The notes under the pieces were generated by a model. That model was not told the origin of the DNA and ran no database searches. It saw nothing but the letters and a program-made list of their open reading frames with translations. The position numbers and the translations under genes are program-made. 64,000 bases of DNA from Chiloscyllium plagiosum (Eukaryota), in the NCBI RefSeq assembly GCF_004010195.1, contig NC_057713.1, positions 102,737,242 to 102,801,241 on the forward strand, written 5' to 3'. Shown piece after piece: positions 248 to 20,599 of this stretch; positions within the stretch are counted from its first letter, which is position 1; the number at the start of each line of letters is the position of its first letter.

Positions 248-676
248 GTTCCCTGCATCAGGGTGGGTTACTCTTCAGAGGGTTGGTGTGGATTTGTTGG
301 GCCAAAGGGTCTTTTACCATACTATAGGGAATCAAATCTAACCTTATCAATATAAGGAGTGATAGGACTGTACCTTGTAGAAAAAAAGAGTCTTGATTTG
401 TAGATTCACCAGGTTGGTACTGCCCTTTTAGGTGCATTTAGTTCTCTTCCTTGCATGCTGTAGCACAATCCTCATTGAACTGGTTTTGATCTATCAGCTT
501 CATGGTAATTACAGATTGAGAAAAATGCCAAAACATCAGATTATATATTAAAGTGAAATGTAATTCTGCTGCTACTGAAAGCCCAAATATTGGCCTATTC
601 CAAATTTATATCAGTTAACACAGTGGTTAACAACAGAGGACAACTAAAAAGGAAATATGCAAAGAAAAAAAATAAG

Positions 677-2543
677 GTACGAAGGGAAACTGGACAAAAA
701 TATAAAGGAGGATAGTAAAGACTTTTTTAGGTAAGTGAAAAGAAAAAAATGGTTAAGACTAAAATTGGGCCCTTGAAGACAGAAACGGGTGAATTTATTA
801 TGGGGAACAAAGAAATTGCAGAAGAATTAAATTGGTACTTTAGATCTGTCTTCACTGGGGAAGACACGAGCAATCTCCTAGACATAAATGTGGCTGAAGG
901 ACCTGAACTGAAGAGAATTTATATTAGGCAGGAAATGGCATTGAAGAGACTGTTAGTCTGAAGGCTGATAAGTCCCCGGGACCTGATGGTCTGCATCCCA
1001 GGGTACTGAAGGAGGTGGCTCTAGAAATCGTGGATGCATTGGTGATCATTTTCCAATGTTCTATAGATTCAGGATCAGTTCATGCAGATTGGAGGGTGGC
1101 TAATGTTGTCCCACTTTTTAAGAAAGGAGGGAGAGAGAAAACAGAGAATTATAGACCAGTTAGTCTGACCTCAGTGGTGGGAAAAATGCTGGAGTCAATT
1201 ATAAAGGATGAGATTACGACACATCTGGATAGCAGTAACAGGATAGGTCAGAGTCAGCATGGAATTATGAAGGGGAAGTCATGCTTGACTAATCTTCTGG
1301 AATTTTTTGAGGATGTAATTCTGAAGATGGACAAGGGAGATCCAGTGGATGTAATATACCTGGACTTTCAGAAAGCCTTTGATAAAGTCCCACATAGGAG
1401 GTTAGTGAGCAAAATTAGGGCACATGGTATTAGGGGCAAAATACTGACATGGATTGAAAATTGATTGGCTGACAGGAAACAAAGAGTAGTGATAAACAGC
1501 TCCCTTTCAGAATGGCGGGTGGTGACCAGTGGTATGCTGCAGGGATCAGCGCTGGGACTGCAGCTTTTTACAATGTACATTAATGATATAGATGAAGGTA
1601 TTAAAAGTAATATTAGCAAATTTGCTGATGACACAAAGCTGGGTGGCAGGGTGAAATCTGAGGAGGCTGTTAGGAGAATACAGGGTGGCCTGGACAGGCT
1701 AGGTGAGTGGACGGATGCATGGCAGATGCAGTTTAATGTGGATAAATGTGTGGTTATCCACTTTGGTGGCAAGAACAGGAAGGCAGATTACTAGCTAAAT
1801 GAAGACAAGTTAGGTAAAGGGGCAGTACAATGAGATCTAGGTGTTCTTGTACATCAGTCAATGAAAGCAAGCATGCAGGTACAGCAGGCAGTGAAGAAAG
1901 CTAATAGCATGCTGGTCTTCATAACAAGAGGAATTGAGTATAGAAGCAAAGAGGTCCTTCTGCAGCTGTACAGGTTCCTGGTGAGACCGCACATGGAATT
2001 TGTGCGCAGATTTGGTCTCCAAATTTGAGGAAAGACATTCTGGCTATTGAGGCAGTGCAGCGTAGGTTCACGAGGTCAATTCCCGGAATGGCGGGACTAT
2101 CTTACGCTGAAAGATTTGAGTGACTAGGTTTGAAAACGCTTGAGTTTAGAAGGCTGAGAAGGGATCTGATTGAGACATATAAGATTATTAAAGGATTGGA
2201 CACTCTGGAGGCAGGAAGCATGTTTCCACTGATGAGCGAGTCCCGAACCAGAGGACACTGTTTAAAAATAAGGGGTAGGCCACTTAGAACAGAGGAGAAA
2301 CTTTTCACCCAGAGAGTGGTGGGTTTATGGAATGCTCTGCCCCAGAAGGCTGTGGAGGCCAAGTCTCTGGATACTTTCAAGAAAGAGTTGGATAGAGCTC
2401 TTAAGGCTAGTGGAATCACGGGTTATGGGGATAAGGCAGGAACAGGATACTGATTGAGGATGATCAGCCATGATCATAATGAATGGCGGTGCTGGCTCGA
2501 AGGGCAGAATGGCCTACTCCTGCACCTATTGTCTATTGTCTAT
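677..2543 (+). mobile_element. CR1 (HER1-like) LINE, 5'-truncated ORF2 reverse transcriptase with stops, intact 3' end
   Basis: ORFs 1015-1464, 1465-1794 and 2130-2453 give RT motifs (NYRPVSLTS, YLDFQKAFDKVPH, KFADDTK). The element ends in a (CTATTGT)n tail. Confidence 0.93.
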
Positions 2544-2831
2544 AAGTAAGGCTCACTGGTCTATAATAACCTGGGTCATCTCTACTGCCCTTCTTGAATA
2601 AGGGCGCAACATTTCCAATCCTCCAGTCCTCTAGTAGTAAACCTGTAGACAATGACAACTCAAATATCAAAGCCACGGGCTCTGCTATCTCCTCCCTAGC
2701 TTCCCAGAGGATCCTCGGATAAATCCCATCTGGCCCAGGCTGATCAGCCATGATCATAATGAATGGCGGTGCTGGCTCGAAGGGCAGAATGGCCTACTCC
2801 TGCACCTATTGTCTATTGTCTATTGTCTATT
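2544..2831. mobile_element. Inverted CR1 RT fragment followed by a duplicate of the preceding element's 3' end
   Basis: 2544-2740 on minus encodes PGPDGIYPRILWEAREEIAEP...YRPVSLT. 2741-2831 repeats 2461-2543. Confidence 0.85.
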
Positions 2832-3699
2832 GGTAGTGCTGACTAATACAACCATGGACATTTTCATTGCAGAAGAGTCTTGGTCACATCAAAGCAATGT
2901 AGTGATCATTAAGTATGTTCAAAGCTGAGATGATAAAATTTAAATCAGTGAAGGAATCAAAGGTTGTGGGGAAAGACAGGAAAGTGGAATTGAGGAATAT
3001 CTGAAAAATGAACCAACTGTTCATTTCTATTCCCTTTTTTATGTCCTTCATATCAAAAGTGTTAGTCACTTCACACAGCATTACAAAATGGCTGACCTCA
3101 ATACATACAGCAAAGGCTGTGAGTCTCAACTTCTATCCAAAACTAGTCCAACTCCTAACCTTGGCATCTACCTGACAGTGTTGAAAATTGCCTAGAAAGA
3201 CATAGCCAGCAGGCACATGGAAGCATCACAACCTGCAAGTTTTCCTCCAAGTCGCATAACACTATTACTTGGAAATGTGTCACCATTCCTTCATTGGCAC
3301 TGCCTAACAACACTATCCATCATTACCATATAATATTTAGTGGTAGGAAAAGGTGGACCATCTCCCTTTTCTCAAGGGAAATCAGGAATGGCAATAGGTA
3401 CTTGCTTTGCAAGTGTCATCCTCACCTGATGAAGGAGTAATTTGAAATAAAATTCTGTGATAATCAATACATCCCTACATCTCTTTATGTGGTGTGGTGT
3501 TATGTTCTGATTTGGCTTTGTAGCTGATGAGTAATTTTAACCAAACTCGTAGAATAAAACATCTACTGAAACAAGTAAAAATTTTGTTTTAAGCCCAGTC
3601 AATTCAAAACCCAGTCAAAAATGAATGGAATATAAATTAAGTGTTTCATCATCCCTTAAATTTTCAAATTGCCAGATTGTTAAAAAACAACCATGACAT

Positions 3700-5035
3700 T
3701 TTTGGTAAAGGTGATCAATATTCAGTACTTATGGAGATGACGTCCTCCTTCATATTGAGAATACCATCCATCATATTGTGTGGCTCTATCACCATGCTAA
3801 ATGGGACAGACACCAAACAGATCTGGCAACTCAAGACTGGGCATTTATGAGGTGCTGTGGTGCATCAATAGCAGCAGAATTGTACCCCAGCATAATCTGC
3901 AAGCTAATGGCCTGGCATGTTCCCCACTCAATCATTATGACCAAGTCAGGGGATGAATCGTTGTTTAATGGAGAGTGCAGGAGGGCATGTCAGGAGCAAC
4001 ATCAGGCATACCTAAAATTGAGATGCCAGTCTGGTGAAGCTACCAACAGGATTTCTTGCATACAAAACAGCATAAGCATTAAGTGATAGCCAGAGCTAAA
4101 TGATCCCATATGCACAGGGTCAGATCTAAGTTCTCACAGGATCAGATCTAAGTTCTGCAGTCTTGCCACATCCAATCATGCATGGTCATGGACAATTAAA
4201 CTCACTGGAGGAGGCTCCACAAATTTCCCCAGCCTCAATGATGGAAAAGCCCAACACTCAAGTGCAACAGATAAAGCTGAAGAATATGCAGCAACTTTTA
4301 GCCAGAAGTATTGAATGGATGATCCATCTTGGCCTCCTCTAGTAGTCCCCAGTATCACAGATACCAGCTTTCAGCACTCACTCCACATGCTATCAAAAAA
4401 CAATTGAAGAGATTGGATAAGGCAAAGGCTATTGCCGCTGACAACATTCCAGCAATATTATTAAAGACCTGTGCTCCAGAACTTGCTGCTGTCCTAGCCA
4501 AGCTCTTCCAATACAGTTACAACACTGGCATCTACCCGACAATGTGGAAAATTACACGGGTTTGTCCTGAACACAAATCTAACATGGCCAGCATTCAAGA
4601 AGTTTGACACCATCCAGATCAAAAGAGCCCACTTGTTAGGCACCACTCCACAAGCATCTACTCCCTCCACTACCAACACTCAGTATTAGCAGTGTATTAT
4701 ATACAAAATACACTGCAGAAATTCACCAAAGAATCTAAGACAGCACCTTCTAAACTAGACTTCTTCCATCTAGAATGACAAGGGCAGCAGATGCATGTTC
4801 CCATCCAGCCTACTCACCAGCCTGACTTGGAAGTATATCACTGCTCCTTCACTGTCACTGGGTCAAAATTCTGGAATTCCCTTCCTATAAGTGCATTATG
4901 GGTCAACTTACAGCATTTGGACTAGAGCAGTTCTAGAAGACAGCTCACCACTACCTTCTCAAGCAAACTAAGGATGGGCAACAAACATTGGCCAGCCAGC
5001 AAAACCCATGTCCCATGAGTGAAGAAATAAAAAAA
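3700..5035 (+). mobile_element. Old CR1/L2-group LINE, degenerate ORF2 and 3' tail
   Basis: ORF 4329-4607 reads KAIAADNIPAILLKTCAPELAAVLAKLFQYSYNTGIYPTMWK. The 3' tail GGATGGGCAACAAA...CCCATGAGTGAAGAAATAAAAAA is shared with the SINEs at 46.1 and 52.8 kb. Confidence 0.8.
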
Positions 5036-5399
5036 CTTGGCTGCTTTTTTTTGTGATTTATGGGCAAGGATTCCCAAATCCATCTGTTCCATAGCTTTCT
5101 GCAGTCTTTCTATGTTTAAATAATATTCAACTCCTCTATTCTTGCCAACATATATAATCTCATTTTCTGAAATCATATTTCATCTCTTAAGTCTTTGCCC
5201 ACTTGTTTAACTTGTCTATGCAGATGCTTTATGTCATCCTCACCACTTGCCTTCTCATTTATTATGATGCAGTAAATTTGGAGCCACTGAACCATCAGGT
5301 CCTTTCATGGAACTTAAATGAATATTAGATTGACAGTCATAATCCACGAACATAATGTTGTGGCCTCTGAAGAGTAGTGAAGGTTATGCCAGACTGTAT

Positions 5400-8313
5400 G
5401 ACACAAAGCCCACAAACAGCACAGCTCCCCAGGCATTCCTGCCCTTGATCACAGAAGTTTTAACCAACAGCACATGAGAGAGGTTGGACCAGCCATCATC
5501 TCCTAAAGAGCTGACCAAGGCCCTCAAATCCTTTGAAAAGAATAAATGTTCCAGAAGTGGTAGCTTAACAGATGAGATGGATTCAGCTCTGTGGGACTTT
5601 GATCAGGACCTGCTGGAGGTATACGAGAAGATGATTATGGCACTCATGGGACATGGGTTTTGCTAATCCATAAGGAAAGGTATCATCACGATCATCTACA
5701 AGCAGAAGGGGAAAGGAAGGAAATTAGAAGTTGGTAACCAATTTCTCTGTTGAATGTGGATGATAAAATCCTGTTTAAGGTCATCGCCAATCAGGTCAGA
5801 TCTGCTCAGGGATGAGTGATTCATCCTAACTGAACCTGTGCTATACCAGACAAGAAGATCTCTGAGAGCATTGTGCTCCTCAGAGATACAATCAGCTACA
5901 TACAGGACACAAGCATTTGCTTCATTGCTCTGGACCAGGAGAAGGCCTTTAACTGGATATTACACACCTACATGAGGAATGTGATCTCCAAATAGGCTTT
6001 GTAGAGGGAATCTGCAATTCATCTGACTGCTCTACACACCATTTTTAGTGCAGTCTTAATCCATGGGTGGGAATCAGAAAGCTTCCTGATCAGATCTGGA
6101 GAGAGGCTGGGCAGCCCACTCTCTGGTTCCTTGTTTGTATATTGTATAGAGCTTTGCTGAGTCCATAAGGAAAGATGCAAGCTTGAGAGGCGTGTCTATC
6201 CCAAGCAATGAAGGCCTGTAAATCAGAGCCTCCCCGTACATGGTTGATGTTGCCATTTTCTGCACAGATCCACTATTAGTGCACAGACTCATGAGCATCT
6301 GTGATGAGTTCAACTGGCCTTGGGAACTAGGATAAATTAAGGCAAGAGCAAGTCCATGTTCTTTGTAAGCTGGGTCGACCGATCCTTTTACCCGTCACTG
6401 TGAGGATAGATTACCTGAATGTGCTCGGAATATGGTTTAGAGAGGCTGTAACATGTGAAAATATTTGTGAGAAGTGAACCACCAAGATGAGGCAGAAACT
6501 GGGCAGATGAGAGCACTATTCCCTCATCACTGTGAATTAAAACCTAGTCATCAGGAATGAAGTACTCTTCGTATTGTTGCATGTGATACATGTTAATATA
6601 TGTAGGTCTAGCCTATTCCCTGAGCCTGCACCACTGCAGTCACCCGAGCCATCTTCCACTTCATCTGGACACTAAGGTCTAGGTAAGGAGGGGAAGGATG
6701 TACCTAATACAAACTTCATCCTGACAGCCAACTTTGTGTGTGGCTGCATAAAGTTGCATGTGGACCTGGTCCTGCATAACCAAGTGTTATTACATACTGA
6801 GGTTCTATCTATTCCCAGTGCTGGAGGGTGGGCCTGGCCTCGTTGCCATGAAACACCCTAAGTAGTTTGAATCACAAACTATCCACTGCTTTTTGTCATT
6901 TGTATAAATGATTTCGATGTGAACATAGGAGATATGGTTGGTAAGTTTGCAGACGACACCAAAATTGGAGGCATGGGAGACAGCAAAGAAGGTTAACTCA
7001 GAGTACAACTGAATCAGATGGGCCAATAGACTGAGATGGAGTTTTGTTTCGATAAATGTGAGGTGCTGCATTTTGGAGGGCAGAAATATAGTTCTTTGAA
7101 AGTGGAGTCTCATGTAGATAGGATAGTGAAGAAGGTGTTTGGTATGCTTGCCTTTATTGGTCAGTGTATTGAGTATAGGATTTGGAAGGTCATGTTGCGG
7201 CTGTACAAAACATTGGTTAGGCCACTTTTGGAATACTGTGTGCAATTCTGGTCTCCCTGCTATAAGAAGGATGTTATGAAGCTTGAAAGGGACCAGAATA
7301 GATTTACAAAGATGTTGCCAGGGTTGGAAGTTTTGAGCTACAGGGAGAGGCTGAATAGGCTGGGGTTATTTTCCCTGCAGGGTTATAGGCTGAAGGGTGA
7401 ACTTATAGAGGTTTATAAAATCATGAGGGGCATAGATAGGATAATAGACAAGGACTTTTCCTGGGGTGGGGGAGTCCAGAACTGGAAGACATAGATTTAA
7501 AGTGAGAGGGTGAAGATTTAAAAGGGACCTAAGAGATAACTTTTTCATGCAGAGAGTAGTTTGTGCATGCAATGAGCTGCCAGAGGAAGTAGTGAGGGCT
7601 GGTATAATCACAAAGATTAAAAGGCGTCTGAATGGTGTATGAATATGAGAGGTTTAGAAGGATATGTGCAAAATGCTAGCAGATGGGTTTGGATTAATTT
7701 ATGATGTCTGGTAGACATGAATGAGTTAGACTGAAGGGTCTGTTTCCATGTTACATACGTCTATGGCGGTAGTTGAACTGTTCTGCATCACCTGTCCCTC
7801 ATAGAAAAGTTTGACTAAAGCTTTGACTAAAAGTCTATCAGGCAGTGTTCAGCATGTAGTGTCCTTGACACCCGTAGGGTAAAGGAGAAGGTTGATTCTG
7901 TTGGATGGTTACCTGAGCAGACTGCCAAAATTGTTTGGCAGAATGACTCATTGTGTAAACTTTCCAAAGTGTTGTTTGGCTGGTGGTGAGAAGGGCATTG
8001 CCCCTCAAAACCTTCATGACTCTGGCCACCACCACACACTGTCCTTAAAGCAACTGGGGAAGTGGGAAGCAATTGGAGACTGTCACACATCTGTTTCAGG
8101 AATGTCCATTTGCAAAGAAGGGCTAGAGAGACATGCAATGGTTTATTTTGCTGAGATAGGTCCTGAACAGCTCCATGATGCAGAACTCTGTGCTCTACCA
8201 GCTGTTTCCCAGGATGCACACAGAGACAAACATCAACTGCTCTTGGAGGACCATCAACTCCATGAAAGACGCTCTTTGGTCAACCTGAAACTTGTTGGTT
8301 TTGACTGAGTGTT
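5400..8313 (+). mobile_element. Tx1/L1-clade LINE relic, interrupted by a CR1 insertion (6880-7765)
   Basis: ELTKALKSFEKNKC, LDQEKAFN and YMVDVAIF-like RT motifs with many stops. The sequence resumes after the CR1 inserts (7766-8313 and ~9597-9640). Confidence 0.7.
6880..7765 (+). mobile_element. CR1 LINE 3' fragment
   Basis: ORF 7036-7494 (LYKTLVRPLLEYCVQFWSP...RLNRLGLFSL) plus a CR1 3' UTR. Confidence 0.9.
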
Positions 8314-9596
8314 AGAACATAGAACATAGAAGAATACAGCGCAGTACAGGCCCTTTGGCCCTCGATGTTGCGCCGATCCAAGCCCACCTAACCTATACTA
8401 ACCCACTATCCTCCATATACCTATCCAATGCCCGCTTAAATGCCCATAAAGAGGGAGAGTCCACCACTGCTACTGGCAGGGCATTCCATGAACTTACGAC
8501 TCGCTGAGTGAAGAACCTACCCCTAACTTCAGTCCTATATCAACCCCNNNNNNNNNNNNNNNNNNNNNNNNNNNNNNNNNNNNNNNNNNNNNNNNNNNNN
8601 NNNNNNNNNNNNNNNNNNNNNNNNNNNNNNNNNNNNNNNNNNNNNNNNNNNNNNNNNNNNNNNNNNNNNNNNNNNNNNNNNNNNNNNNNNNNNNNNNNNN
8701 NNNNNNNNNNNNNNNNNNNNNNNNNNNNNNNNNNNNNNNNNNNNNNNNNNNNNNNNNNNNNNNNNNNNNNNNNNNNNNNNNNNNNNNNNNNNNNNNNNNN
8801 NNNNNNNNNNNNNNNNNNNNNNNNNNNNNNNNNNNNNNNNNNNNNNNNNNNNNNNNNNNNNNNNNNNNNNNNNNNNNNNNNNNNNNNNNNNNNNNNNNNN
8901 NNNNNNNNNNNNNNNNNNNNNNNNNNNNNNNNNNNNNNNNNNNNNNNNNNNNNNNNNNNNNNNNNNNNNNNNNNNNNNNNNNNNNNNNNNNNNNNNNNNN
9001 NNNNNNNNNNNNNNNNNNNNNNNNNNNNNNNNNNNNNNNNNNNNNNNNNNNNNNNNNNNNNNNNNNNNNNNNNNNNNNNNNNNNNNNNNNNNNNNNNNNN
9101 NNNNNNNNNNNNNNNNNNNNNNNNNNNNNNNNNNNNNNNNNNNNNNNNNNNNNNNNNNNNNNNNNNNNNNNNNNNNNNNNNNNNNCCTACTATGGGGAAC
9201 CTTATCAAACGCCTTACTAAAATCCATATATACCACATCTACCGCTTTCCCCTCATCAACCTCCTTCATCACCTTTTCAAAGAATTCAATAAGGTTTGTG
9301 AGGCACGACCTGCCCTTCACAAAACCATGCTGACTATCCTTGATCACATTATTCCTATCCAGATGTGCATAAATCCTACCCCTTACAATTCTCTCTAAGA
9401 CTTTGCCCACAACAGAAGTGAGACTCACCGGCCTATAGTTACTAGGGTTATCCCTACTCCCCTTTTTGAACAAGGGAACCACATTTGCTATCCTCCAGTC
9501 TTCTGGCACTACTCCTGTAGACAAAGAGGACATAAAAATCAAGGCCAATGGCTCTGCAATCTCCTCCCTTGCTTCCCAGAGAATCCTAGGATAAAT
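8314..9596 (-). mobile_element. Young CR1 LINE spanning the assembly gap
   Basis: (GTTCTAT)n tail at ~8314. Uninterrupted RT peptide on minus (NYRPVSLTS...YMDFSKAFDKVPH) at 9186-9596. Confidence 0.9.
8548..9185. other. Assembly gap (638 N)
   Basis: Run of n characters. Confidence 1.
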
Positions 9597-9741
9597 ATGT
9601 TGTAGACTGAATATTTCAAGGTCCACAACTACATGCTAAAGCTTAGTCACCAATGCACAGTGAAAATATATCTCTGTTTCAGATTGTTCTGCCAAAGTAT
9701 AACAGGGATCTGTTCAGTTCTCAGACTCCCATTGCCTCAAA

Positions 9742-10046
9742 CTCAGTGGTTAGCACTGCTGTCTCACAACACCAGATTCCTAGATTCAATTCCAGCCTAG
9801 GGAAACTGTCTGTGTGGAGTTTGCACATCCCCCCCGTGTTTGCATGGGTTTCTTCTGGGTGCTCTGGTTTCCTCCCACAATTCAAAGATGTGCAGGTCAG
9901 GTGAATTGGCTAGGCTAAATTGCCCATAGTGTTAGCTGCATTAGTCAGAGGAGAATGGGACTAGGTGGGTTACTCTTCGGCGGGTCAGTGTGGACCTGTT
10001 GGGCCAAAGGGCCTGTTTCTGCACTTTAGGTAATCTAACCATCTAA
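9742..10046 (+). mobile_element. tRNA-derived V-SINE (HE1-like)
   Basis: CAGTGGTTAGCACTGCT head, GGAGTTTGCAC...GGTTTCCTCCCACA core, CR1-like tail. Confidence 0.88.
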
Positions 10047-10287
10047 ACAAAATACATGGAAATATTTTCCTACATGAGTTAAAAATGCCTTGCTCTTTGG
10101 GCAGTCAAATTCCAATATGTCCTCTGTTTTGTTTTCTGTCTCAAAGACTGCATGGAAAGGATTGAGATGTATATGTACTGATAGGGAAAAGTTTCTTTTA
10201 TGATTAAAGTATATTTTTGCAATGAAGAAAGAAACCTATCTCTAAAGTTGATTCTCAACTTGATTCAAATACAAATCTTCATTCCCC

Positions 10288-11222
10288 ACTTCCAGGCACC
10301 TACCACCCTCTGTGTAAAATACTTTCTGCATATATTCCCCTTAAACTTTTCATCTCCACCTTGAAAACATGACCTCTCATTATTGAATCCCTCACCCTGG
10401 AAGAAAAGCTTATCTCTATCTATCCTGTTTATACCCTTCATGATTTTGTAGACCTCAGTCAGGTCCCCCCTCAATCTCCTTTTTTTTTCTAATGAAAACA
10501 GTCCTAACCTACTGAACCTCTCTTCATAGCTAGCACCTTTCATACAAGGCAACATCCTTGTAAACCTTCTCTGCACTCTCTCCAAAGCTTTCACATCCTT
10601 TTGGTAACGTGGTGACCAAGACTGTACACAGTATTCTAAATGCTGCCGAACTAATGTCTTGAACAATTTCAACATGATCTTCCAGCTCTTATACTCAATA
10701 CCCCATCCGATGAGGCAAGCATACCATATGCCTTCTTGACCACTCTATCAACCTGTGCAGCCACCTTCAGGATACAATGGACCTGAACTCCCAGGTCTCT
10801 CTGTCATCAACTTTTCCCAAGGCTCTTCCGTTTACAGTATAGTTTGCTCTAGAATTAGACTTCCCAAAATGCATCACCTCACATTTGCCTGGATGGAACT
10901 CCATCTGCCATTTCTCCACCCAACTCTCCAGTCTATATTCTCCTGTATTCTTTGATAGTCCCCTATGTTTTCTGCTTCTCCATCAACCTTCATGTCATCT
11001 GCAAACTTACTGATCAGACTAGCAATGCCCTCTTCCAGATCATTTATGTATATCACAAACAACAGTGGCGCCAGCACTGACCCCTGTGGAAAACCACTGC
11101 TCACTTTCTCCATTTCGAGAAACTCCTTTCAACTAGTACTCTCTGTCTCCAGTTCTTTATCCGCCTCGCTAGAACACCCTGCACACCATGTGACTTCACT
11201 TTCTCCATTAGTTTACCATGAG
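10288..11222 (-). mobile_element. CR1 LINE fragment
   Basis: ORFs 10874-11113 (PQGSVLAPLLF, KFADD) and 10265-10675 (LEYCVQSWSP). Confidence 0.9.
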
Positions 11223-11450
11223 TGACATTGGAACTGATGCAAGTGTGAGACTGGGGAGACATAAGCCCTCAAAATGCATTCAGTGACAGCTGTGTCTGGG
11301 GGATTGTAGGTCGGATTCAGTCTCTGTATCACTGAAGCTAGACCAGTTAAGGTAGACAAACTGTTTTATATTGGGTGTACCCACTTTGGCCAGTGTGGTT
11401 ACTGTTAAAGGGTTGGAGACGCTGCTGGTGAATAATCAGAGCGAGTGATA

Positions 11451-11478
11451 GGTTATTGTCAGGGGGTGTAACATAGTG
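11451..11478 (+). promoter_or_regulatory. 12-RSS of J1
   Basis: Nonamer GGTTATTGT (11451-59), exact 12-bp spacer, heptamer CATAGTG (11472-78). Confidence 0.9.
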
Positions 11479-11534
11479 CTACAGCAGTGCTTACGTGAAA
11501 ATTTTCGGCGCTGGAACGAAACTCTTTGTCACAG
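11479..11534 (+). CDS. TRGJ: TCR gamma J segment 1 (YSSAYVKIFGAGTKLFVT)
   Basis: FGxG motif, gamma-type KIFG, preceded by a 12-RSS, phase-1 donor G|GTGAGA. Confidence 0.95.
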
Positions 11535-11667
11535 GTGAGACTTCGATGTATTGCAGTAACAGTGGAGATGTGCTGAGTAACCGGATTATGGCTTTTAGAA
11601 GAGCGGGCGATATTTTCTGATCTCTGCAGGTTTAGTTCCTTTGGGAGAGAGTCTATGCGTCTGAGTT

Positions 11668-11695
11668 GGTTATTGTAATATAATATAACACAGTG
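11668..11695 (+). promoter_or_regulatory. 12-RSS of J2
   Basis: GGTTATTGT (11668-76), 12 bp, CACAGTG (11689-95). Confidence 0.92.
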
Positions 11696-11752
11696 CCACC
11701 TCTGGAGCATGGAGAAAAATATTCGGCTCTGGGACTCGGCTCATTGTAACTG
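11696..11752 (+). CDS. TRGJ: TCR gamma J segment 2 (TSGAWRKIFGSGTRLIVT)
   Basis: W-x-K-I-F-G-S-G-T as in mammalian TRGJ. 12-RSS and donor G|GTAAGA. Confidence 0.95.
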
Positions 11753-11972
11753 GTAAGAGGTGTGAGTGCGGTGAAGTGTTCAATAGGGTTCGGAGAGATT
11801 TATTCACAAAAATAACGTCTGGTGTGGCGGTCAGTCTGTACAATATTTGTTGGGGGTGTGGCTGGCCACGGTGCCAGTTTCTCGTGGTTGTTGGAGGAGA
11901 TTGGCACCAAAGCCCTATCTCCCGTTCAGTGTTTCCCCGAATAAGTCAGCCTCAGGATATAGGCGGTGGCCG

Positions 11973-12000
11973 GGTTTTTGTATAGTAGCATATCACAGTG
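11973..12000 (+). promoter_or_regulatory. 12-RSS of J3
   Basis: Consensus nonamer GGTTTTTGT (11973-81), 12 bp, CACAGTG (11994-12000). Confidence 0.95.
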
Positions 12001-12047
12001 GTGAGGGGTAAAGGTCTTCGGAACTGGGACTAAACTGATAGTTACAG
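12001..12047 (+). CDS. TRGJ: TCR gamma J segment 3 (*GVKVFGTGTKLIVT; in-frame TGA at 12002-12004)
   Basis: KVFGTGTKLIVT, consensus-nonamer RSS, donor G|GTGAGT. The first full codon in frame is TGA. Confidence 0.92.
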
Positions 12048-12544
12048 GTGAGTGGACAATGGTTAAGGAGTGATAGCGCCGCGAAACTCGCTCCAGGTTG
12101 ATACCGAGAAGGTCTGGGTCACTTGGGTCAAAGGTTTCTGGACTCCAGCTTTATAACGGATTCGGGGGTGCTGAGTGCATGGCCCCGGGCACCTAACGTT
12201 GCCAATATTAAAATTGATCATTCAGTAACACCGCGAAATGTATAATGTAGTATTGTGGCCAAGATGACACCAACAAGATCCCTGCCTGTCTGTTATAGGA
12301 ACTCCGCGCTAATCTGGATCTACCACTTAAATTGTGTTTGCAGAATTTTCCGATTGCTACAGTAACTCTGAAAACCCTGTCATGTTTAATGAGGGAAATA
12401 TCTAACGGTCAATTAAATAAAGCCGTGGAAACAGTAACAATTCATAGATCCAATGATACTAATGCAGATGGGTAATAGCACAAGAGTTACAGTAAGTGAA
12501 CTGAGACAGTAGTCCTTAAAAGCGGCAGTAATATTCACCGCTGC

Positions 12545-12572
12545 AGATTTTGTACGGTACTCTGTCGCTGTG
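12545..12572 (+). promoter_or_regulatory. Variant 12-RSS of J4
   Basis: AGATTTTGT (12545-53), 12 bp, CGCTGTG (12566-72). The essential GTG next to the coding end is retained. Confidence 0.75.
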
Positions 12573-12621
12573 GCCGGTACACGTTTGCAGTTTGGCAGTG
12601 GGACCAGGCTCATTGTAACGG
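12573..12621 (+). CDS. TRGJ: TCR gamma J segment 4 (AGTRLQFGSGTRLIVT)
   Basis: Open frame, FGSGT motif, variant 12-RSS, phase-1 donor G|GTGAGT. Confidence 0.85.
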
Positions 12622-12689
12622 GTGAGTTTGATTTTGTTGCTCATCCCGGGATCATGTTCCCTTGCAGCTATAATAACCTGCAATTTGTG

Positions 12690-12746
12690 CAAACTGATTT
12701 TTAAAAATCTTCAGTTTTCGGTGCTGGGACTGAGCTGTGAGTCCCT
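12690..12746 (+). pseudogene. Decayed J segment (..VFGAGTEL*VP)
   Basis: TTC GGT GCT GGG ACT GAG CTG TGA GTC CCT|GTGAGT: FGAGT motif, stop codon, donor in the wrong phase, no recognisable nonamer. Confidence 0.65.
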
Positions 12747-13839
12747 GTGAGTCTTTCAAATCTAGCAATTTAATAATACACGGGAACAGTTCACACTCTG
12801 CTTCAGGGAGGCACGAAAAGGAACGTTTAGCATCGTCTTAGTGGCGATAGGTTGCTTTAATTTGTTGCGAATGGAACGTCTAGAAACCGGGGAGTTACAG
12901 TGGGACCCGAAAATGAACGAGGAACTTAGTTTCTCGTTCGAATCGTTCACTGCTCTCACACAAGTGTCGCCTCTATGGGCAAAGTCCAACATAAAGGAAT
13001 AAGCAGTGAATTTATGATACACAAAGCACGCTGAGTTTCTCCGACATTCTCTGTGTTTGTTTGAGATTCGAACATGCACCATATATGAATTTATATATAC
13101 TCCTTACAAAATTCAGATTGAAAGTACGTTATTTTGGAGCAGCGTTACGAACATGACTAAGGTCCCAAACTGTTTAGAATGTACATAAATCTGCACTTTA
13201 GGAGCTAGTGGATGTCTATGACATCGTAGCAGTAATTGATGCAGGAATAAAGCGAGGGTAACTTGGTAGGTCAGGACGGGGGACGACTGTGGGAAGGGGA
13301 GGCGAGCTGTCCGGTGTAGGTCTGTCCGCGCAGGTGAGAGGGACGGAGAGGCGACATGGGGGACCCGAGCCTCAAAAGGCCGGGAAGGTGGGCCGTTCAT
13401 TGCCGATCAGTCAGAATGAGGAAAGACCTGCATTTAATTCATGTTCAGCTTCAATATTACGGGGAGTCGACGCACTTTTAAAAGTTGCTTATCGTGCATT
13501 GATCACTTTAACTTAATTACCGTTGGTTCGAGGAAATTCTTAAAGAAAGGAAAGGGGCGACTTCGTATCTTTCAACAAAGAAACAAAGAAAGCGGCCAGG
13601 GAAGCATAAGTGTTAAGAGAATTGGGAAGAGGCGCGGGTAAAATTATAGGATGATGGATTAGAGAAGGAAGGTATTAGGTCTATCATACATGCACCACTT
13701 CTATCCAGTTGGCGGTTCTCCTTTGCTCACTCGTCATAACTTTATCTATTCCTACTTTTCAAAAATGGAATTAGTTTCCACAGATGTTACAGTCAGTGCA
13801 TTCCAAATCACAGCTGACCGTTTAACTTTGAACAAAGGC

Positions 13840-14220
13840 TAAACATGTTGGGACTCTACTCATTGGAGTTTAAAACAATGAGAGGTGATCTCATTGAAGC
13901 ACTTAGGATTCTTTAGGGTCTTGGCAGGATAAATGCTGAGGGGACGTTTTCCCTCATGGGAGAGTTTTGGATCAGAGGGCATTGCCCCAATTTAAGGCTG
14001 GGATGAGGGGGAATTTCTTCTCTCAAAATGTTGTGAGTTTTTCCAACTGTTTGCCGCGAAGAGCTGTGTTGGGCAGATTCCTTGCGGATACATAAGATAG
14101 ACAGATTCTTCATCAGTAGGGGAATCAAGGGCTACAGGTAATGGGCAGGAAAATGGACGTGAGAAATGTCGGATCAGCAGGCTGGAGGGCTCGAATTGTC
14201 TACTCCTATTCTTAAATCGT
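13840..14220 (+). mobile_element. Old CR1 3' fragment in the J-C intron
   Basis: GGAGTTTAAAACAATGAGAGGTGATCTCATTGAA...TACTCCTATTCTT CR1 3' end. Confidence 0.75.
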
Positions 14221-14303
14221 ATGGCCTTATAGTTGCACACTTATGGCCGCTGGTTCTTTGCACAATTGGTTTACGAATGCTCCCATGATTGCCTCATACT
14301 GGA

Positions 14304-14508
14304 AAAAGTGAGGACTGCAGATGCTGGAGATCAGAGCTGAAAATGTGTTGCTGGAAAAGCGCAGCAGGTCAGGCAGCATCCAAGGAGCAGGAGAATCGTC
14401 GTTTCGGGCATGAGCCCTTCTTCAGGAATCATGCCCGAAACGTCGATTCTCCTGCTCCTTGGATGCTGCCTGACCTGCTGCGCTTTTCCAGCAACACATT
14501 TTCAGCGC
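14304..14508. mobile_element. Penelope-type inverted-repeat (hairpin) element with 15-bp target-site duplication
   Basis: Arms ~14336-14413 and ~14429-14506 are near-perfect reverse complements. Flanks TGCCTCATACTGGAA (14290-304) and TGCCTCATAGTGGAA (14509-523). Confidence 0.8.
14398..14425 (-). ncRNA. Minimal hammerhead ribozyme core (Penelope-type), cleavage triplet mutated
   Basis: Minus strand: CUGAAGA-A-GGGC-UCAU-GCCC-GAAAC-GAC. The partner arm has GAAACGTC. Confidence 0.6.
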
Positions 14509-14632
14509 TGCCTCATAGTGGAAGCTATTTCTCCTTTTCACTCCACCTACAGACATGTGTGTGTTGTAAACTTATGTTTGTCCTTAACTGAGAAGTTTAC
14601 AGACATTTGTCTTTTTTTTTTGTTTGAATCAG

Positions 14633-14953
14633 ATGCAATTGTTCGGTCACCAAAAATACAAATGTTCCCTCCGAACAACACGGAACTGGATAGAGATAAA
14701 AAAGCGACCATCGTCTGTCTCCTGACTGACTTCTTTCCCGATGTCATTCGGGTTCAATGGACTATCGGGGGAACGAGCGCATCCGAAGACAAAGTGTCAA
14801 CTGACTCAGTGGAAACACAAGCAAACGGCACTTACTCAGTGATCAGTCGCCTGAAAATCACTAAGTTTGAATGGGACACGAGCAGCGTTCATTGCAGTGC
14901 GGAGCATGAACTACCTCCAAACAAAGCCACGATTAACAAGGCCTCCATTCCCG
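14633..14953 (+). CDS. TRGC: TCR gamma constant exon 1 (Ig C1 domain)
   Basis: Polypyrimidine tract and AG at 14631-32. DAIVRSPKIQMFPP...ATIVCLLTDFFPDVIRVQW...YSVISRL...VHCSAEH has both Cys and the Trp. 321 nt, phase 1/1, GT at 14954. Confidence 0.95.
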
Positions 14954-16032
14954 GTACTGTTTCCATTGTCTCCTCTTAGCTTCTACTTCTTAGTACAAGC
15001 GGGTTCAGGAATTATTTTGCATCAACTCTCATCTGACTGAAATGTTCGATTTTACACTTTCATTTTAAATTAGTGCATTTTATTTTAAATATAACGTTCA
15101 GTAGAGTCATAGTCCATCTTTTAATCACATAGAAAAGTTATACCGAAGGTTCAATCAGATTAAATTCCCCATGCCCTTTAGACAAGCTTTCTCAGAAGCT
15201 TATTAACTCCAATGCAGTTTTGGTGTTCATTAAATAACTTAACAGTAGTGATTACAAATGGAATCTTGCGATTTTCTGTTCAATATCTGTTAGAGATCAG
15301 GTTCTGTACTTGAGGTCGGTAAGTACCATGTTGTTCTAGCAAGGGCCGATTTAGCACAGCTTCTGACATGGGATGAAAAATCTTCCCAGCATTTATGTTG
15401 GAAACGTAACTTTTATTTCAATATAATATTCTATTTGTGCCCAACTCCCCGCTTGCGAAGTACTCCGGATTCTGAACGATCAGTTCTGGAATCTGTAAAT
15501 TTGATAAATTGTCACTAGAATGGGGGCGGGGGGGGGGGGGGGGGAGTAAACTTTTCAAAGCCAGCGTGGTTGTCCCGAGCGCCCGCGGAACTTCGTCGGG
15601 AGATCCGCTGCAATTCCGGAGGGAGTGGAGCATAAGTGGCATTTTTCAATACAACACCGAAAGAAGTGTAAGAAACCAGAGCAACATGATCAGTATTGAA
15701 TTCACAGTATCAGTCCAGGTTACAGTGAAATGCTGATCCTCCAGTGGGGACTGAGAAGTGAAACGTTCATTGAAAGAAAAAGCTAATGTGTTACACCCAC
15801 TGTTTTAACGGCAGAAAATTATTACTTTAACACGTTTTAATTCCTTGCCAAACCGAACTCCTTTGGCTCAGAGATTACGAACTCCCGCAAGTATGCTTCG
15901 TTTACTCAGTGCCATAACAGATTATCTCCAAATGGACAGACTAATTCATGTTTCCACCCCCTCTCGCCAGCCACTGCATCGCTGAATTCTCGAATTGCTT
16001 CTAATCTGTCGTCTTTCTTTCCCCACCCGTAG

Positions 16033-16107
16033 CTAACGCACAAAGTAATGCTGCAACCCAGACGTGTTCGCCTAGTGTTCAGAACCTAACAACAATCGAG
16101 ACTAAAG
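16033..16107 (+). CDS. TRGC: TCR gamma constant exon 2 (connecting peptide ANAQSNAATQTCSPSVQNLTTIETK)
   Basis: Acceptor TCTTTCTTTCCCCACCCGTAG, 75 nt, phase 1/1, donor AAG|GTAATT. Single Cys for the interchain disulfide and an NLT sequon. Confidence 0.85.
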
Positions 16108-16399
16108 GTAATTCCTGTGGGAGGACGAACCGGTTTGCCAAGTCTAGGCGAGGCTTCCAGTGTTCAGGCAATTAACTCGGAGGCCAGGCCGTGTATCGGT
16201 TGGTCGGTGGGTCGACACCCGCACAACGTGCAGAAACGCTCTTACCTTGTTAGAAAATCACAACTAATCCAGTATTGTTCTTCAAGGAAGGCAGTCAGCT
16301 GTCCTTTCTGGGGTCTCACCCATACCAAATCCAGCCCACTCTCACTATCGGATTGCTCGGCCAGAAAAGGGTTTAGAGAAACAAACAAAGTGAGCAAAG

Positions 16400-18560
16400 T
16401 AATACATTGGTAAAGGTGGTCTCAGAAGGATGAGAATGGAACTAAGGAAAATAAACTGGGGGAAAACAGTACTGACTAAGGAAGAGCTAGAACAGTAATG
16501 GGAAACATTCAAAAGAATGATGAATAGACCCTAAGACAAATAGATTCCATTGAAAACTCAAAATCAGATTAGACAATAATAACAGACCACGAAGATAGAG
16601 AGAAATCAAATTAATGAAAACTGTATTCAAATGCACATCAAAAAGAGACAATATGAGATTAACTGATCAAGGAATGCTAATGCGTACAGCTCCGAAAGCT
16701 AGTGTGCTTCCAATTAAACCCGTTGGACTATAACCTGGTGTGTGATTTTTAACTATATGTATGCACGTATTTTATATATATAGATGGATAGATAGATTAA
16801 CATTCTATAGCGATAAAATAGAAAAGGGAAACAATCGGGATAGTTGCAGGACCACTAAGAGATGCAGAGATATTTCAGGAATGACACTAAATATATGGCA
16901 GAAATATTAAATAAGTCCTTCTCCCAGGGAAATTAACATGCTGTACATGCCATTAAGATTAGAGTTCGAAAAAATGTGCAAGCATTTACAAATGGAAAAG
17001 GAGCGGTAATTGATTGACTAATCAAACTTTGAGAACATACACATCTGCCATTCCCGTCTCCTACAGTTCGTTCGTTAAAACATATGTCCAAGATTTTGCT
17101 CATTAGCTAAGAAATACGGTGTCATATTTCGAATGATTAGTTGAAGCATCTTGAGATAAAAAAGATACAAATTATTAACAATTTTTAAAAGGCATTTGAA
17201 TAAATACTTGAATAGGAAAGGATTAGAAGGATATGGGCCAAGTGCAGGGAAATGGGGTCAGCGCAGATCGACATTTTGATCGACATGGACCAGTTTGGGC
17301 CAAATGGCCTGTCTACGTGCTGTAGGACTCTAAGACTCTAAATTCAAATGGTTTCGGATCCAGATAGGTTGTGTCTGCGCCTTTTATAAAAAGTCAGGGA
17401 AGAACTAGGAGGGCGTCTTACAGATTTTTAGAAAATAGCGACATTACTATGAAAGAGAGATCGACAATTACTGCTCTTTCGAAAATATAAAAAATGGAAA
17501 TCAAACAAGCCTTTGGGAAATATAAGATCAATGTCGCTCATAATAAAAATAATGGAAATGTAGAAACCTGGAAATAGAAAGTTTATAGTCCATTGTGTTT
17601 GCATCAGCTCACTCCCATTTACTCCCATTTAATTCCAGTTTTGGTCCATAGTTCTGTTGGTTACAACCTTTCAAATGGATATCCAGATATCTTTACCAGA
17701 AAAATTTCATTCAAAAGCCTAGATAATGAAAACAATTAGCCGGTACAGATTTCAGTAAAGGAGGTTGTGATCGACTTGAAGTAGCAGGACCAGCAGACGA
17801 GGGTAATACCGTACATTTAGATTTCTGACTCATGTATATTGAATGTGTGGGATCAGAGAGCTAGGTGCCTCCAAAAAGGAAGCCTTAGAAGTGGCTAATC
17901 AGACTGGAAAAGAAATGCTGGGAAAATGTTGGAATAGGGCTTGTGCTAGGGACATTTTTGTTCAGCATTGACACAGATGATTTGGACTCACGAATTGGAA
18001 AAATAATTTCAACATTTTAAGATGTCAACTTGATGGTGAGGGTAGTTAAAAGACAGGAACGTAGTGATAAATTACAGGAAGACATTCACGAATCCGTAGA
18101 ATGAGCATGCTTTTAAGAATTGTGCTTTCATCTCTATAAGTATTCGGATACTCGATTTGGGAGGAAGAATAATGAGACAACATAACCCCTGAAAGTACAT
18201 TTGTAAATAGTCCAGAGAAACAGGGTGAGCTGGAATGCAGATACACAAGTCACTAAACGTGATGGTGGGGATTAGTAAGTTTATACAGAAAAAACTGAAA
18301 TTTTCTTCCAGAAGAATACGATTGGATAGGAGAAAAGTTTCATGTATACGTGGAGAAGCCTCATTTGACTCCATTTGGACTGATAATAAACGGTGCTGTT
18401 CTCTAAATTATAAAGACGCACTAGAAAAGAAGCAAAACTGATTTTTTAGGCTACCAGAACAGAGAAGTTACACCTAACCGAGAAAAATAAACAGCCTGAT
18501 TAACTTTTCTGTAAGGGAGAGTTAGAGCACAAACAAATATGTCATTAAGATTATAAAATT
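16400..18560 (+). mobile_element. Degenerate CR1 fragments in C intron 2, with a Penelope-type fragment at ~16663-16755
   Basis: CR1 3' end at 17170-17340, eroded RT-like stretches, and a GAAAGCTAGTG...GGACTATAACCTGGTG motif. Confidence 0.6.
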
Positions 18561-18627
18561 ACTTTATAGATAGATGAAACAAAACTAGATAGGAACAAAA
18601 CTAGAAAGTGCTATATTGAGTCACTAT

Positions 18628-18882
18628 TGGCTCAGTGGTTAGCACGGCTGCCTCACAGTTCGGTTCCAGCCTTGGGCGACATTCTTCCCGTGTCTGCGTC
18701 TGTTTCCTCCTACAATCCAAAGATGTGCAGGTTAGGTTCCATGCTAAATTGCCCATTGTATTCAGAAATGTGTAGGTTAGGTGCATTAGTCCGGACAAAT
18801 ATAGTGTAGGCGAATGAATCTGAGTGAGTTTCCCTTCGGAGGGTCGGTGTGGACGTGTTGGGCCGAACACTGTTGGGATTCT
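18628..18882 (+). mobile_element. V-SINE (HE1-like), degenerate
   Basis: TGGCTCAGTGGTTAGCAC head and GGGTCGGTGTGGAC tail. Confidence 0.8.
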
Positions 18883-19628
18883 AAAGTCAGTTAAAAAAAA
18901 CTAGATTATCGAGAGGATAGTTAAAAGGTAAAGGGAGTGAAGGGTACCGACTAGGGGACTGGTATCGATACAGATAAACCATGTGAACGAAAAAAGAGGG
19001 ATATTTTGAGCTGAGTCAAAGCTAGGGTTTGGGACCATAAAGACAGATGTGGAGCAGTTGGGCCAAATGGCCCGCCTCTGAGTTTAGATTTAGAAACGCC
19101 AGTACCACCTTCGCGGAGCTCGGGATTTTTCTACCTATTGCAAGTGTTTGAGGTTCTATTTGGCTGTCTCCCAACATTGAACAGCTTTTCGTCTTTACTG
19201 GTGAGAACCTTCTGCTGCACAATGTAATGTTTTGTCCCTGTTTAAGTGTGATTGTTCTCTGGTTTAAAGCAATCTAACAAAACTGGAAAGGACAATTCAT
19301 TTATCAATTCTAAATCCACCGGAAGTAGCTTTTTCCATGGTTTCGTGAGTGAAATGCTTAAGACTGGATCTGACAATCCATTTTAAATATGGAGTTTTGA
19401 CAAATAATTACTCAACCGAATTACGAGCAACGGATATCTCACTTAATCATTAAAGTACTTTGCCAAATCTAGCAGATAAATGTTTTTCACCCGCTGTAGT
19501 TTACAAGCGGAGTTCACTGCCCATTATTCGTTTTTCTCAAATGATTACACTTCAATTTAGCATGGTCTCCGATATTACAGAACCGCATTGTGCATAAATG
19601 CCGTATTTTGTGTTTCTTCATTTTTCAG

Positions 19629-19762
19629 AATGGCCTTTGAGTTCACTGCAGTTGGCGTCTTTTACATATACACTGCTTCTGTTGAAGAGCGTGGTCTATT
19701 GTGGGATTATCTCGTTCATCTTGTACAAAGTGGAGTACCGTGACGTGAAGAAGCCACTTTAA
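19629..19762 (+). CDS. TRGC: TCR gamma constant exon 3 (TM + cytoplasmic tail)
   Basis: Acceptor TTTCTTCATTTTTCAG. EWPLSSLQLASFTYTLLLLKSVVYCGIISFILYKVEYRDVKKPL* closely matches the TRGC TM (LQL...YxLLLLKSVVY) with the conserved Lys. Confidence 0.95.
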
Positions 19763-20147
19763 TCCGGTATCGACCACCTCCCATTTCAAAATTTGATAAC
19801 AGATCTCTATTTGGCTTATGCTCCGATTTCCTGTTTACACGCAGAAATTGTACTTTTTAACTGTCAGTGTATGAACAGCTTACAACTGTCATGTAAATAT
19901 ATCCGGGGCGGGGGAGGGGGTGGGGGTGTGGGGTGGGTGGTTATTTTCAATCTTGTGTGTGTGAATAATGAGCAAAGCCTTCTGTGTGGATGACGCATTC
20001 TTGTTAATCAAGTTAATGTGATGGTTTCCAGAAGTATTGCTTGATGTTTCAAATGCTGCACTTTGCGAATCTTTCGCTACAACAAAATTGTTGTCTTCAG
20101 TTATAAGTTCATTTTGTAATTTTACTTCACAATTTTGCAAATTTGAC

Positions 20148-20153
20148 AATAAA
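20148..20153 (+). terminator. Polyadenylation signal of TRGC
   Basis: First AATAAA seen after the stop (~385 nt downstream), followed by T-rich sequence. Confidence 0.7.
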
Positions 20154-20599
20154 GTATATTTCAAACTCATTTGATTATTTCCCCTGTTTTGCTCTCAACG
20201 AGGCAGTAATCACCAATTTAGTAATATATGTTCTAAAGAGTATCACCTGAAAATGCAGCAAAAATGCCAAATACTACTCAAAGTACCCAGTTGACTCATG
20301 CAAAGTCTTAACTTATACCATTAACATCTGATGTTAAGGAAACAACATTAGTGTCTTAATTCGTTATGGATATTAATTCAGCGTACAGTAATGCAGAAAC
20401 CTAGACTAAGAATTTAGGGAAGTTTAATTTAAGATGATAATTGGCAATAAAATCAGAAACAGAGATCATGAAGCTGAGTTCATTGTTAAAAAAACAGCGT
20501 GGTTCACTAATGCCCTGTAAAATTGAAGCTTAACCTTACTACTCTTGCAATCTATTTGCCTCGCAATAAATCATAATTTGTTAGCTTTCCTGATTAATT

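What the first reader, a model, noticed from the sequence alone, without database searches (positions are those of the whole stretch)
11451..20153. Shark TCR gamma J cluster and constant gene, with at least 4 J segments plus a pseudo-J
Seen: four 12-RSS J segments with phase-1 donors and a three-exon C gene that splices in frame (J-G|AT GCA...CCC G|CT AAC...AAA G|AA TGG...TAA). Established: TRG is V-J only with 12-RSS on J, and the TM motif is diagnostic of gamma. From memory (verify), the sandbar shark TRG locus was described with three J and one C, so extra J segments would be a lineage difference. The ORF track captures only C exon 1.
Basis: partly seen in the sequence, partly recalled or inferred. 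Interest (0 to 1): 0.7.

Follow-up and report, generated by a model that had tools for sequence, protein, structure and literature searches.

The report
Bamboo shark T-cell receptor gamma locus
This is the 3' end of a bamboo shark's single T-cell receptor gamma locus: four joining segments, each seen spliced to the one constant gene, and a likely decayed fifth lie downstream of 14 intact variable exons, making it an ordinary immune locus that is larger than the sandbar shark's and, in this assembly, lacks the upstream neighbour gene found in bony vertebrates.

Summary
Confirmed: a TCR gamma (TRG) locus. Four J segments carry 12-spacer RSS and phase-1 donors. The three-exon C gene is single-copy and 61% (C domain) and 81% (membrane exon) identical to nurse shark TCR gamma. 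Upstream lie 14 intact V exons with 23-RSS in 7 families and 4 pseudogenes. Contigs of public runs show both C introns and all four J-to-C joints, plus three V-N-J-C junctions, two in frame. The pseudo-J scores like a real J but has no RSS and a stop; it may be the decayed counterpart of an expressed nurse shark J. Sandbar shark has 5V-3J-1C, but all four J types occur in other sharks, so the difference is modest. One side result: the 5' neighbour is SUSD5, while amphiphysin, the neighbour in bony vertebrates, lies about 8 Mb away; misassembly is not excluded. This scan has already noted TRG loci in other cartilaginous fish. New member of a known kind; interest 0.28.

The parts
11451..11534 (+). 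TRGJ1: 12-RSS 11451-11478, coding 11479-11534, donor at 11535
   Evidence: J1-to-C joint in runs X16, X18 and X1. In-frame V-N-J1 junction in X18. Identical peptide in C. punctatum P0004.
11668..11752 (+). TRGJ2: 12-RSS 11668-11695, coding 11696-11752, donor at 11753
   Evidence: J2-to-C joint in X14 and X15. Near-identical J in Heptranchias, Heterodontus, Mustelus and Carcharodon models.
11973..12047 (+). TRGJ3: 12-RSS 11973-12000, coding 12001-12047, donor at 12048; germline in-frame TGA at 12002-12004
   Evidence: J3-to-C joint in X14, X16 and X17. In X17 five bases are trimmed, which removes the TGA, and the junction is in frame.
12545..12621 (+). TRGJ4: 12-RSS 12545-12572, coding 12573-12621, donor at 12622
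   Evidence: V-N-J4-C contig in X19, using the most distal V 159 kb away, out of frame. J4-type segments are in nurse shark cDNAs P0008 and P0015.
12714..12752 (+). Pseudo-J: FGxGT motif at 12717, in-frame stop, donor-like GTGAGT at 12747 one base short, no RSS
   Evidence: Matrix rank and RSS scan; parsimony against 11 J peptide types; no joint to C in 7 of 7 contig runs.
14633..14953 (+). TRGC exon 1, Ig C1-set domain
   Evidence: Pfam C1-set E 8.8e-19; 61% to nurse shark TCR gamma; single copy, next genome hits 39% or less.
16033..16107 (+). TRGC exon 2, connecting peptide with one Cys (predicted interchain bond to the delta chain)
   Evidence: Joints 14952-16032 and 16105-19627 in contigs; 68-84% to relatives.
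19629..20169 (+). TRGC exon 3: membrane helix with Lys, short tail, stop at 19760-19762, 3' UTR, AATAAA at 20148-20153
   Evidence: 81% to nurse shark TCR gamma; 11 of 11 PDB hits match the same helix, 9 of them named TCR gamma; contig to 20169.
1..11450 (.). Part of the interval between the last V (about 8.9 kb before the window) and J1: retroelement remains and an N run; no V, D or J found
   Evidence: About 3.2 kb of the 20-kb interval reads N and could hide a segment.

Best explanation
[quoted passage not shown] Shown: the layout is 14 intact V exons + 4 pseudo-V, 4 J + 1 pseudo-J and 1 C over 167 kb, all on one strand; V-J junctions have trimmed J ends and 1-3 non-germline bases; all four J and both C introns are spliced as predicted. 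Inferred from established V(D)J biology: RAG1/2 joins a 23-RSS V to a 12-RSS J by deletion without a D; TdT adds the extra bases; the exon 2 Cys bonds to the delta chain; the membrane Lys recruits CD3. Inferred from other sharks: AID later mutates the V. J3 yields a productive chain only if trimming removes its leading TGA. The pseudo-J cannot recombine because it lacks an RSS, and is likely a decayed fifth J.
For: RSS and J frames with a chance control. V array and families. Leaders found for 12 of 14 intact V; two leader types match the nurse shark gamma V1 and gamma V3 primer peptides in PMC5931798. Identity to nurse shark TCR gamma cDNAs. C exon 1 and the J cluster are each single-copy. 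Among 7 contig runs with this species label, J1-C is seen in 3, J2-C in 2, J3-C in 3, J4-C in 1 and pseudo-J-C in 0; three V-N-J-C junctions are seen. A MENTAL-domain gene lies inverted at the 3' side, as in other vertebrates.
Against: The contig runs are not on record as RNA; that they are transcripts is inferred from the GT-AG joints. The only J4 junction seen is out of frame, so productive use of J4 in this species is not shown. The 5' neighbour is not amphiphysin, unlike other TRG loci. Automatic names of the closest proteins say Ig light chain. Pairing, CD3 binding and hypermutation were not tested.
Confidence: 0.97

Rival explanations
1. It is an Ig light-chain locus, as the automatic annotations of the closest proteins say.
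For: 4 of 4 hits of the C domain among longer proteins are named Ig lambda/kappa-like or hypothetical. Top PDB hits of the C domain are Ig chains. It is V-J only.
Against: Light chains have no connecting peptide or membrane exon (established); here both are spliced on. The same protein family includes cDNAs named TCR gamma. The PDB list is driven by multi-domain sums. This is one translocon with one C, whereas shark Ig genes lie in clusters (PMC6795676, for IgH).
Confidence: 0.01
2. It is TCR beta, or another TCR chain with a similar membrane helix.
For: The best other C hits in the genome (C41 twice, C46; 32-39%) include two with a related Tyr-Leu...Lys-Ser helix. One catshark homologue is auto-named TCR beta-like.
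Against: There is no D segment, and V is joined directly to J. The C domain is 61% identical to named TCR gamma against 39% or less to those other C genes. The PDB membrane hits are TCR gamma chains.
Confidence: 0.015
3. The pseudo-J is a chance match or a partial copy of J1 or J3, not a decayed fifth J type.
For: It has no RSS; the best candidate has 6 mismatches and overlaps the motif. At protein level the nurse shark J shares 9 of 11 residues with J1 and 8 of 11 with the pseudo-J (read). The matrix was built from only four sequences.
Against: It outscores every other site in 377 kb, equals the real J in leave-one-out tests (19.7-24.2 against 19.7-23.6 bits), lies 95 nt after J4 and keeps a donor at almost the right distance. 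It needs 3 base changes from the nurse shark P0023 J type and 5-9 from the other 10 types.
Confidence: 0.35
4. The SUSD5 neighbourhood and the distant amphiphysin are scaffolding errors, and the true order is AMPH-TRG-STARD3NL.
For: The assembly has gaps: one of 64 N between SUSD5 and the first V, 8 between the first V and J1, and one of 500 N between the end of amphiphysin and its next gene. AMPH-TRG-STARD3NL is reported for mammals, opossum, alligator, newt, catfish and zebrafish.
Against: Only one short gap separates SUSD5 from the V array. No BAR-domain exon was found in the 290 kb upstream of the first V. No V lies in the 200 kb that covers amphiphysin's 3' part and beyond. SUSD5 and TRG share a chromosome-length contig in 8 other sharks, judged by equal contig lengths; this shows linkage, not adjacency.
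Confidence: 0.25

Closest known systems
Sandbar shark (Carcharhinus plumbeus) TRG translocon, Chen et al. 2009 (paper not held; seen through passages of PMC7349638 and PMC5931798)
   Same: Single V(n)-J(n)-C translocon, one C, no D, all J used.
   Different: 5 V and 3 J there; here 14 intact V exons in 7 families, 4 pseudo-V, 4 J and a pseudo-J over 167 kb. Hypermutation was shown there and not tested here.
Nurse shark (Ginglymostoma cirratum) TCR gamma cDNAs ADW95910-95915 (P0008, P0015, P0022, P0023)
   Same: C domain 61% and membrane exon 81% identical; J1 and J4 types shared; V families shared (81% and 78% for two of them). PMC5931798 already inferred 9 V genes in nurse shark, nearly twice the sandbar count.
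   Different: One cDNA (P0023) uses a J type with no intact counterpart here; the pseudo-J may be its remnant. No nurse shark genomic locus was available for comparison.
TRG loci of bony vertebrates with a single J-C cluster (zebrafish V7-J7-C, duck 5 J, alligator 9 J, opossum 7 J; PMC8656973, PMC7349638)
   Same: Cluster layout, three-exon C (stated for alligator and opossum), inverted STARD3NL at the 3' side. Four J is well inside the known range.
   Different: The 5' border is amphiphysin in zebrafish, alligator and opossum (not established for duck); here it is SUSD5, with amphiphysin about 8 Mb away on the same chromosome.

Membership tests
TCR gamma locus (TRG) | V with 23-RSS and J with 12-RSS, joined directly with no D | tested here: met
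   13 V RSS at the strict cut-off plus one weaker; four 12-RSS J; three direct V-N-J junctions. About 3.2 kb of the V-J interval reads N.
TCR gamma locus (TRG) | C gene of C1-set domain, connecting peptide with Cys, and membrane/tail exon with Lys | tested here: met
TCR gamma locus (TRG) | C closer to named TCR gamma than to other antigen-receptor C domains | tested here: met
   61% and 81% to ADW95914.1 against 39% or less to any other C1 in the genome. No tree was built.
TCR gamma locus (TRG) | Rearranged, spliced transcripts | tested here: met
   Contigs of runs not on record as RNA; 2 of 3 junctions in frame.
TCR gamma locus (TRG) | STARD3NL inverted at the 3' border | tested here: met
   MENTAL-domain exons on the minus strand from just past the window end. 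The name STARD3NL rather than STARD3 is inferred from position; the paralogue is on C33.
TCR gamma locus (TRG) | Amphiphysin at the 5' border (usual in bony vertebrates; a synteny marker, not part of the definition) | tested here: not met
   SUSD5 starts 35 kb upstream of the first V, head to head. Amphiphysin is at C4:110.71-110.82 Mb.
TCR gamma locus (TRG) | Chain pairs with TCR delta and CD3 on T cells | not testable with these tools
   Inferred from the Cys and the membrane Lys.
Shark TRG with somatic hypermutation | AID-type mutations in rearranged V | tested here: inconclusive
   One C-to-T change in the X17 junction against all 4 matching germline V ends. It sits in a WRC motif but also in a CpG, and the animal differs from the reference.
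Ig light chain | Single C exon, no membrane anchor | tested here: not met
   Two further exons, including a membrane helix, are spliced on.
TCR beta | D segment between V and J | tested here: not met
   No RSS pair between the last V and J1; direct V-J junctions.

The most novel reading that the evidence does not exclude
The amphiphysin-TRG border, treated as conserved from zebrafish to humans, does not exist in this shark: TRG sits head to head with SUSD5, and amphiphysin lies 8 Mb away. If other cartilaginous fish agree, that border is a bony-vertebrate arrangement or was broken early in sharks. In addition, carpet sharks began with five gamma J types, the fifth still expressed in nurse shark and decayed in place in the bamboo shark.
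Probability: 0.45. Interest if true: 0.45.

Novelty: new member of a known kind. Interest (0 to 1): 0.28.

Why it matters
Shark TCR gamma hypermutates, and measuring that needs a germline map. The only shark locus cited in the reviews I could read is the sandbar shark's (5V-3J-1C). The bamboo shark is bred as a laboratory model (PMC8692893, search listing only), and this map of 14 V, 4 J and 1 C makes its gamma repertoire and mutation rate directly measurable. Public annotation calls the orthologues Ig light chains in most sharks listed, which hides gamma-delta T cells in expression studies. The different 5' neighbour matters for anyone who uses amphiphysin as the border to declare a TRG locus complete. 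None of this changes how the receptor is thought to work.

Tried and rejected
Papers not held: Chen 2009 and Criscitiello 2010 (one search used a wrong id), so sandbar J sequences and any published nurse shark J count were not seen. The PDB search with the C domain was uninformative because multi-domain Ig chains dominate. No RNA holder was listed by the run search. About 2% of the raw single-cell run X20 was read and nothing fell on the exons; this is no evidence either way. Accession-number order as a proxy for SUSD5-TRG adjacency in other sharks gave gaps of hundreds to thousands and was dropped. The Atlas did not hold the SUSD5 exon. The terminal exon of the MENTAL-domain gene was not located in the window. 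The ORF at 57455-57802 has no Pfam match. No extra V was found up to 440 kb upstream or in the window, and no extra J in 377 kb. The C11 and C30 BAR hits were checked as amphiphysin candidates and read like endophilin B (label recalled). The elephant shark genome supplement held (1 file) had no hit for TCRG, STARD3NL, AMPH or SUSD5; it may not be the full supplementary text.
Full report
Observation. Four RSS of the nonamer-12-heptamer type end at 11478, 11695, 12000 and 12572. Each is followed by an FGxGT frame and a phase-1 donor. They are the only such sites in the window and 4 of 4 carry FGxG, whereas 100 Markov-1 simulations gave a mean of 0.01 and a maximum of 1. The C gene has three AG/GT-bounded exons (14633-14953, 16033-16107, 19629-19762) that read in frame with every J: a C1-set domain, a connecting peptide with one Cys, and a membrane helix with Lys. 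J3 begins with an in-frame TGA at 12002-12004.

Identity. The C domain is 61% and the membrane exon 81% identical to a nurse shark cDNA named TCR gamma. The membrane exon's 11 PDB hits all match the same helix and 9 are named TCR gamma, though the best E-value is only 0.07. In the genome, C exon 1 and the J cluster are single-copy; other C1 domains reach 39% at most among the 150 of 368 candidates scored. The closest proteins are from Hemiscyllium ocellatum and Chiloscyllium punctatum (82-83%) and carry automatic Ig light-chain or hypothetical names. They have the same membrane exon, so those names are wrong. A neighbouring gene is 100% identical to a record labelled Chiloscyllium plagiosum, which gives the species label.

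The rest of the locus. The window is G000:C4:102737242-102801241. In the 147 kb upstream lie 14 intact V exons, all on the + strand, from C4:102.590 to 102.728 Mb. Thirteen have a 23-RSS at the strict cut-off and one has a weaker one. They form 7 families of 1, 3, 4, 3, 1, 1 and 1 members. Leaders were found for 12 of 14. The two without are a 1.6-kb tandem duplicate with an identical exon, which may be an assembly artefact, and one V at -28 kb. Four more V are broken by a stop, a truncation or an insertion. One further V lies on the 1.5-kb contig C46360, either an allele or an unplaced copy. No V was found further out, up to 440 kb. The span from first leader to C stop is 167 kb. About 3.2 kb of the 20 kb between the last V and J1 reads N.

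Expression and rearrangement. Contigs of 7 public runs with this species label (3 studies; not on record as RNA) were laid. X14-X16 were laid on the whole J-C region; X17-X19 and X1 on the J cluster only. Joints with GT-AG ends, or loose ends that read into C exon 1, show J1-C in 3 runs, J2-C in 2, J3-C in 3, J4-C in 1 and pseudo-J-C in none. Exon 1-2 is seen in 2 of 3 and exon 2-3 in 3 of 3 runs that could show it. Three contigs continue into a V. The most proximal V is joined to J1 (2 J bases trimmed, 2 added, in frame). A V of the four-member family is joined to J3 (5 trimmed, which removes the TGA, 3 added, in frame). The most distal V is joined to J4 across 159 kb (3 trimmed, 1 added, out of frame). 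So all four RSS or donors are used, but productive J4 use is not shown. Contigs show presence only; the counts are not usage frequencies.

The pseudo-J. A matrix from the four J ranks position 12717 fifth among all positions of 377 kb on both strands, with nothing else within 2 bits. In leave-one-out tests it scores like a true J. It has a stop, a donor one base short and no RSS. Among 26 shark proteins, all four intact J types have counterparts: J1 in nurse, whale and brownbanded bamboo shark; J2 in sevengill, horn, smooth-hound and white shark; J3 in sevengill, basking and brownbanded bamboo shark and catshark; J4 only in nurse, zebra and epaulette shark. Some J1/J3 assignments are close calls. 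One nurse shark cDNA (P0023) has a fifth type. The pseudo-J is 3 base changes from that type and 5-9 from the other ten. I put the odds that it is that J's remnant at about 0.55-0.65, because only protein was available for nurse shark.

Mechanism. Shown: layout, trimmed and extended V-J junctions, splicing. Inferred from established V(D)J biology: RAG1/2 deletional joining under the 12/23 rule, TdT additions, a disulphide to TCR delta and CD3 assembly through the Lys. Inferred from sandbar and nurse shark (PMC5931798, passages): AID hypermutation of V. One C-to-T difference in the X17 junction cannot be told from an allele.

Neighbours. A MENTAL-domain gene, STARD3NL by position, lies on the minus strand from just past the window end, as in other vertebrates (PMC7349638, passages). 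The 5' neighbour is SUSD5, head to head and 35 kb from the first V. A PTHB1-domain gene (BBS9, name recalled) lies about 245 kb upstream of the first V. Amphiphysin, the 5' border in mammals, opossum, alligator, newt, catfish and zebrafish (passages of PMC7349638, PMC12698447 and PMC8656973), is at C4:110.71-110.82 Mb. It is followed by a DUF5614/DUF1308 gene (C7orf25, name recalled) and no V. One 64-N gap separates SUSD5 from the first V, and one 500-N gap lies after amphiphysin, so I give misassembly about 0.25. In 8 other sharks SUSD5 and TRG lie on contigs of equal length, which shows linkage only.

Comparison and novelty. Sandbar shark has 5 V, 3 J and 1 C (PMC7349638). Nurse shark was already estimated at 9 V (PMC5931798). 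J counts of 2 to 9 are known in single-cluster TRG loci. Earlier unchecked notes of this scan give 8V-3J, 7V-2J and 7V-3J for other cartilaginous fish, and an amplified V array in another shark. I found no description of this species' TRG locus or of SUSD5 as its border in nine paper searches; none of the 20 papers listed of 30 contains SUSD5. The main text of PMC7677710 has no TCR term (supplements not seen). PMC11372145 mentions only tcrb and tcrd in the passages read. PMC12227049, PMC10322711 and PMC6795676 were read as passages. Chen 2009, Criscitiello 2010 and most subscription journals are not held, so a published nurse shark J count or flank could exist unseen.

Verdict. This is a new member of a known kind, with a modestly larger V and J set and two small leads: a decayed fifth J and a different 5' border. 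Interest 0.28.

Noticed in passing
G000:C4:102.530-102.555 Mb (L019-L021) and C4:110.71-110.84 Mb (L039, L057-L070): SUSD5, not amphiphysin, borders the V array; amphiphysin lies 8 Mb away and is followed by a DUF5614/DUF1308 gene.
   Followed up: yes
window 12002-12004: J3 starts with an in-frame TGA. The C. punctatum model P0003 reads through this spot, which suggests a one-base difference in this species (DNA of the relative not seen).
   Followed up: partly
G000:C4:102.728 Mb (L001:828-1109): The most proximal V ends two bases after Cys-Ala, without the Trp that follows in the other 13, and is 44-50% identical to all other V. It is rearranged in frame in X18 and is 96% identical to C. punctatum P0003.
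   Followed up: partly
G000:C4:102.6155-102.6187 Mb (L012-L013): A 1.6-kb tandem duplicate carries an identical V exon but no leader or polypyrimidine tract; a recent duplication or an assembly artefact.
   Followed up: partly
G000:C46360:1253-1519 (L076): Unplaced 1.5-kb contig with an intact V exon and RSS, 96% identical in protein to the V at -115 kb; allele or extra copy.
   Followed up: partly
V array, L001-L015: V families recur in a repeated order in blocks of 1.4-3.5 kb at 77-97% identity, consistent with several tandem duplications of a multi-V unit.
   Followed up: partly
Upstream of V leaders: A TCA(Y)TTCC motif noted earlier by this scan occurs within 900 bp upstream of 6 of 15 V exons tested, 57-81 bp before the leader ATG; background is 0.058 per 900 bp (pattern widened by me).
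   Followed up: partly
G000:C41:18.64 and 18.78 Mb, C46:8.36 Mb (L033-L035): Three related C1 domains; the two on C41 face opposite ways and each has a TCR-type membrane exon. TCR beta-like by recall; the C46 copy showed no such exon in the 10 kb fetched.
   Followed up: no
Protein records P0002-P0017: TCR gamma gene models of ten shark species are auto-named Ig lambda- or kappa-like (nine) or TCR beta-like (one).
   Followed up: yes
window 1-11450 and 20200-64000: Mostly retroelement remains (reverse-transcriptase and endonuclease-like frames, short interspersed repeats). The 3' end of the MENTAL-domain gene probably reaches into the window's last kilobases; its last exon was not found.
   Followed up: no
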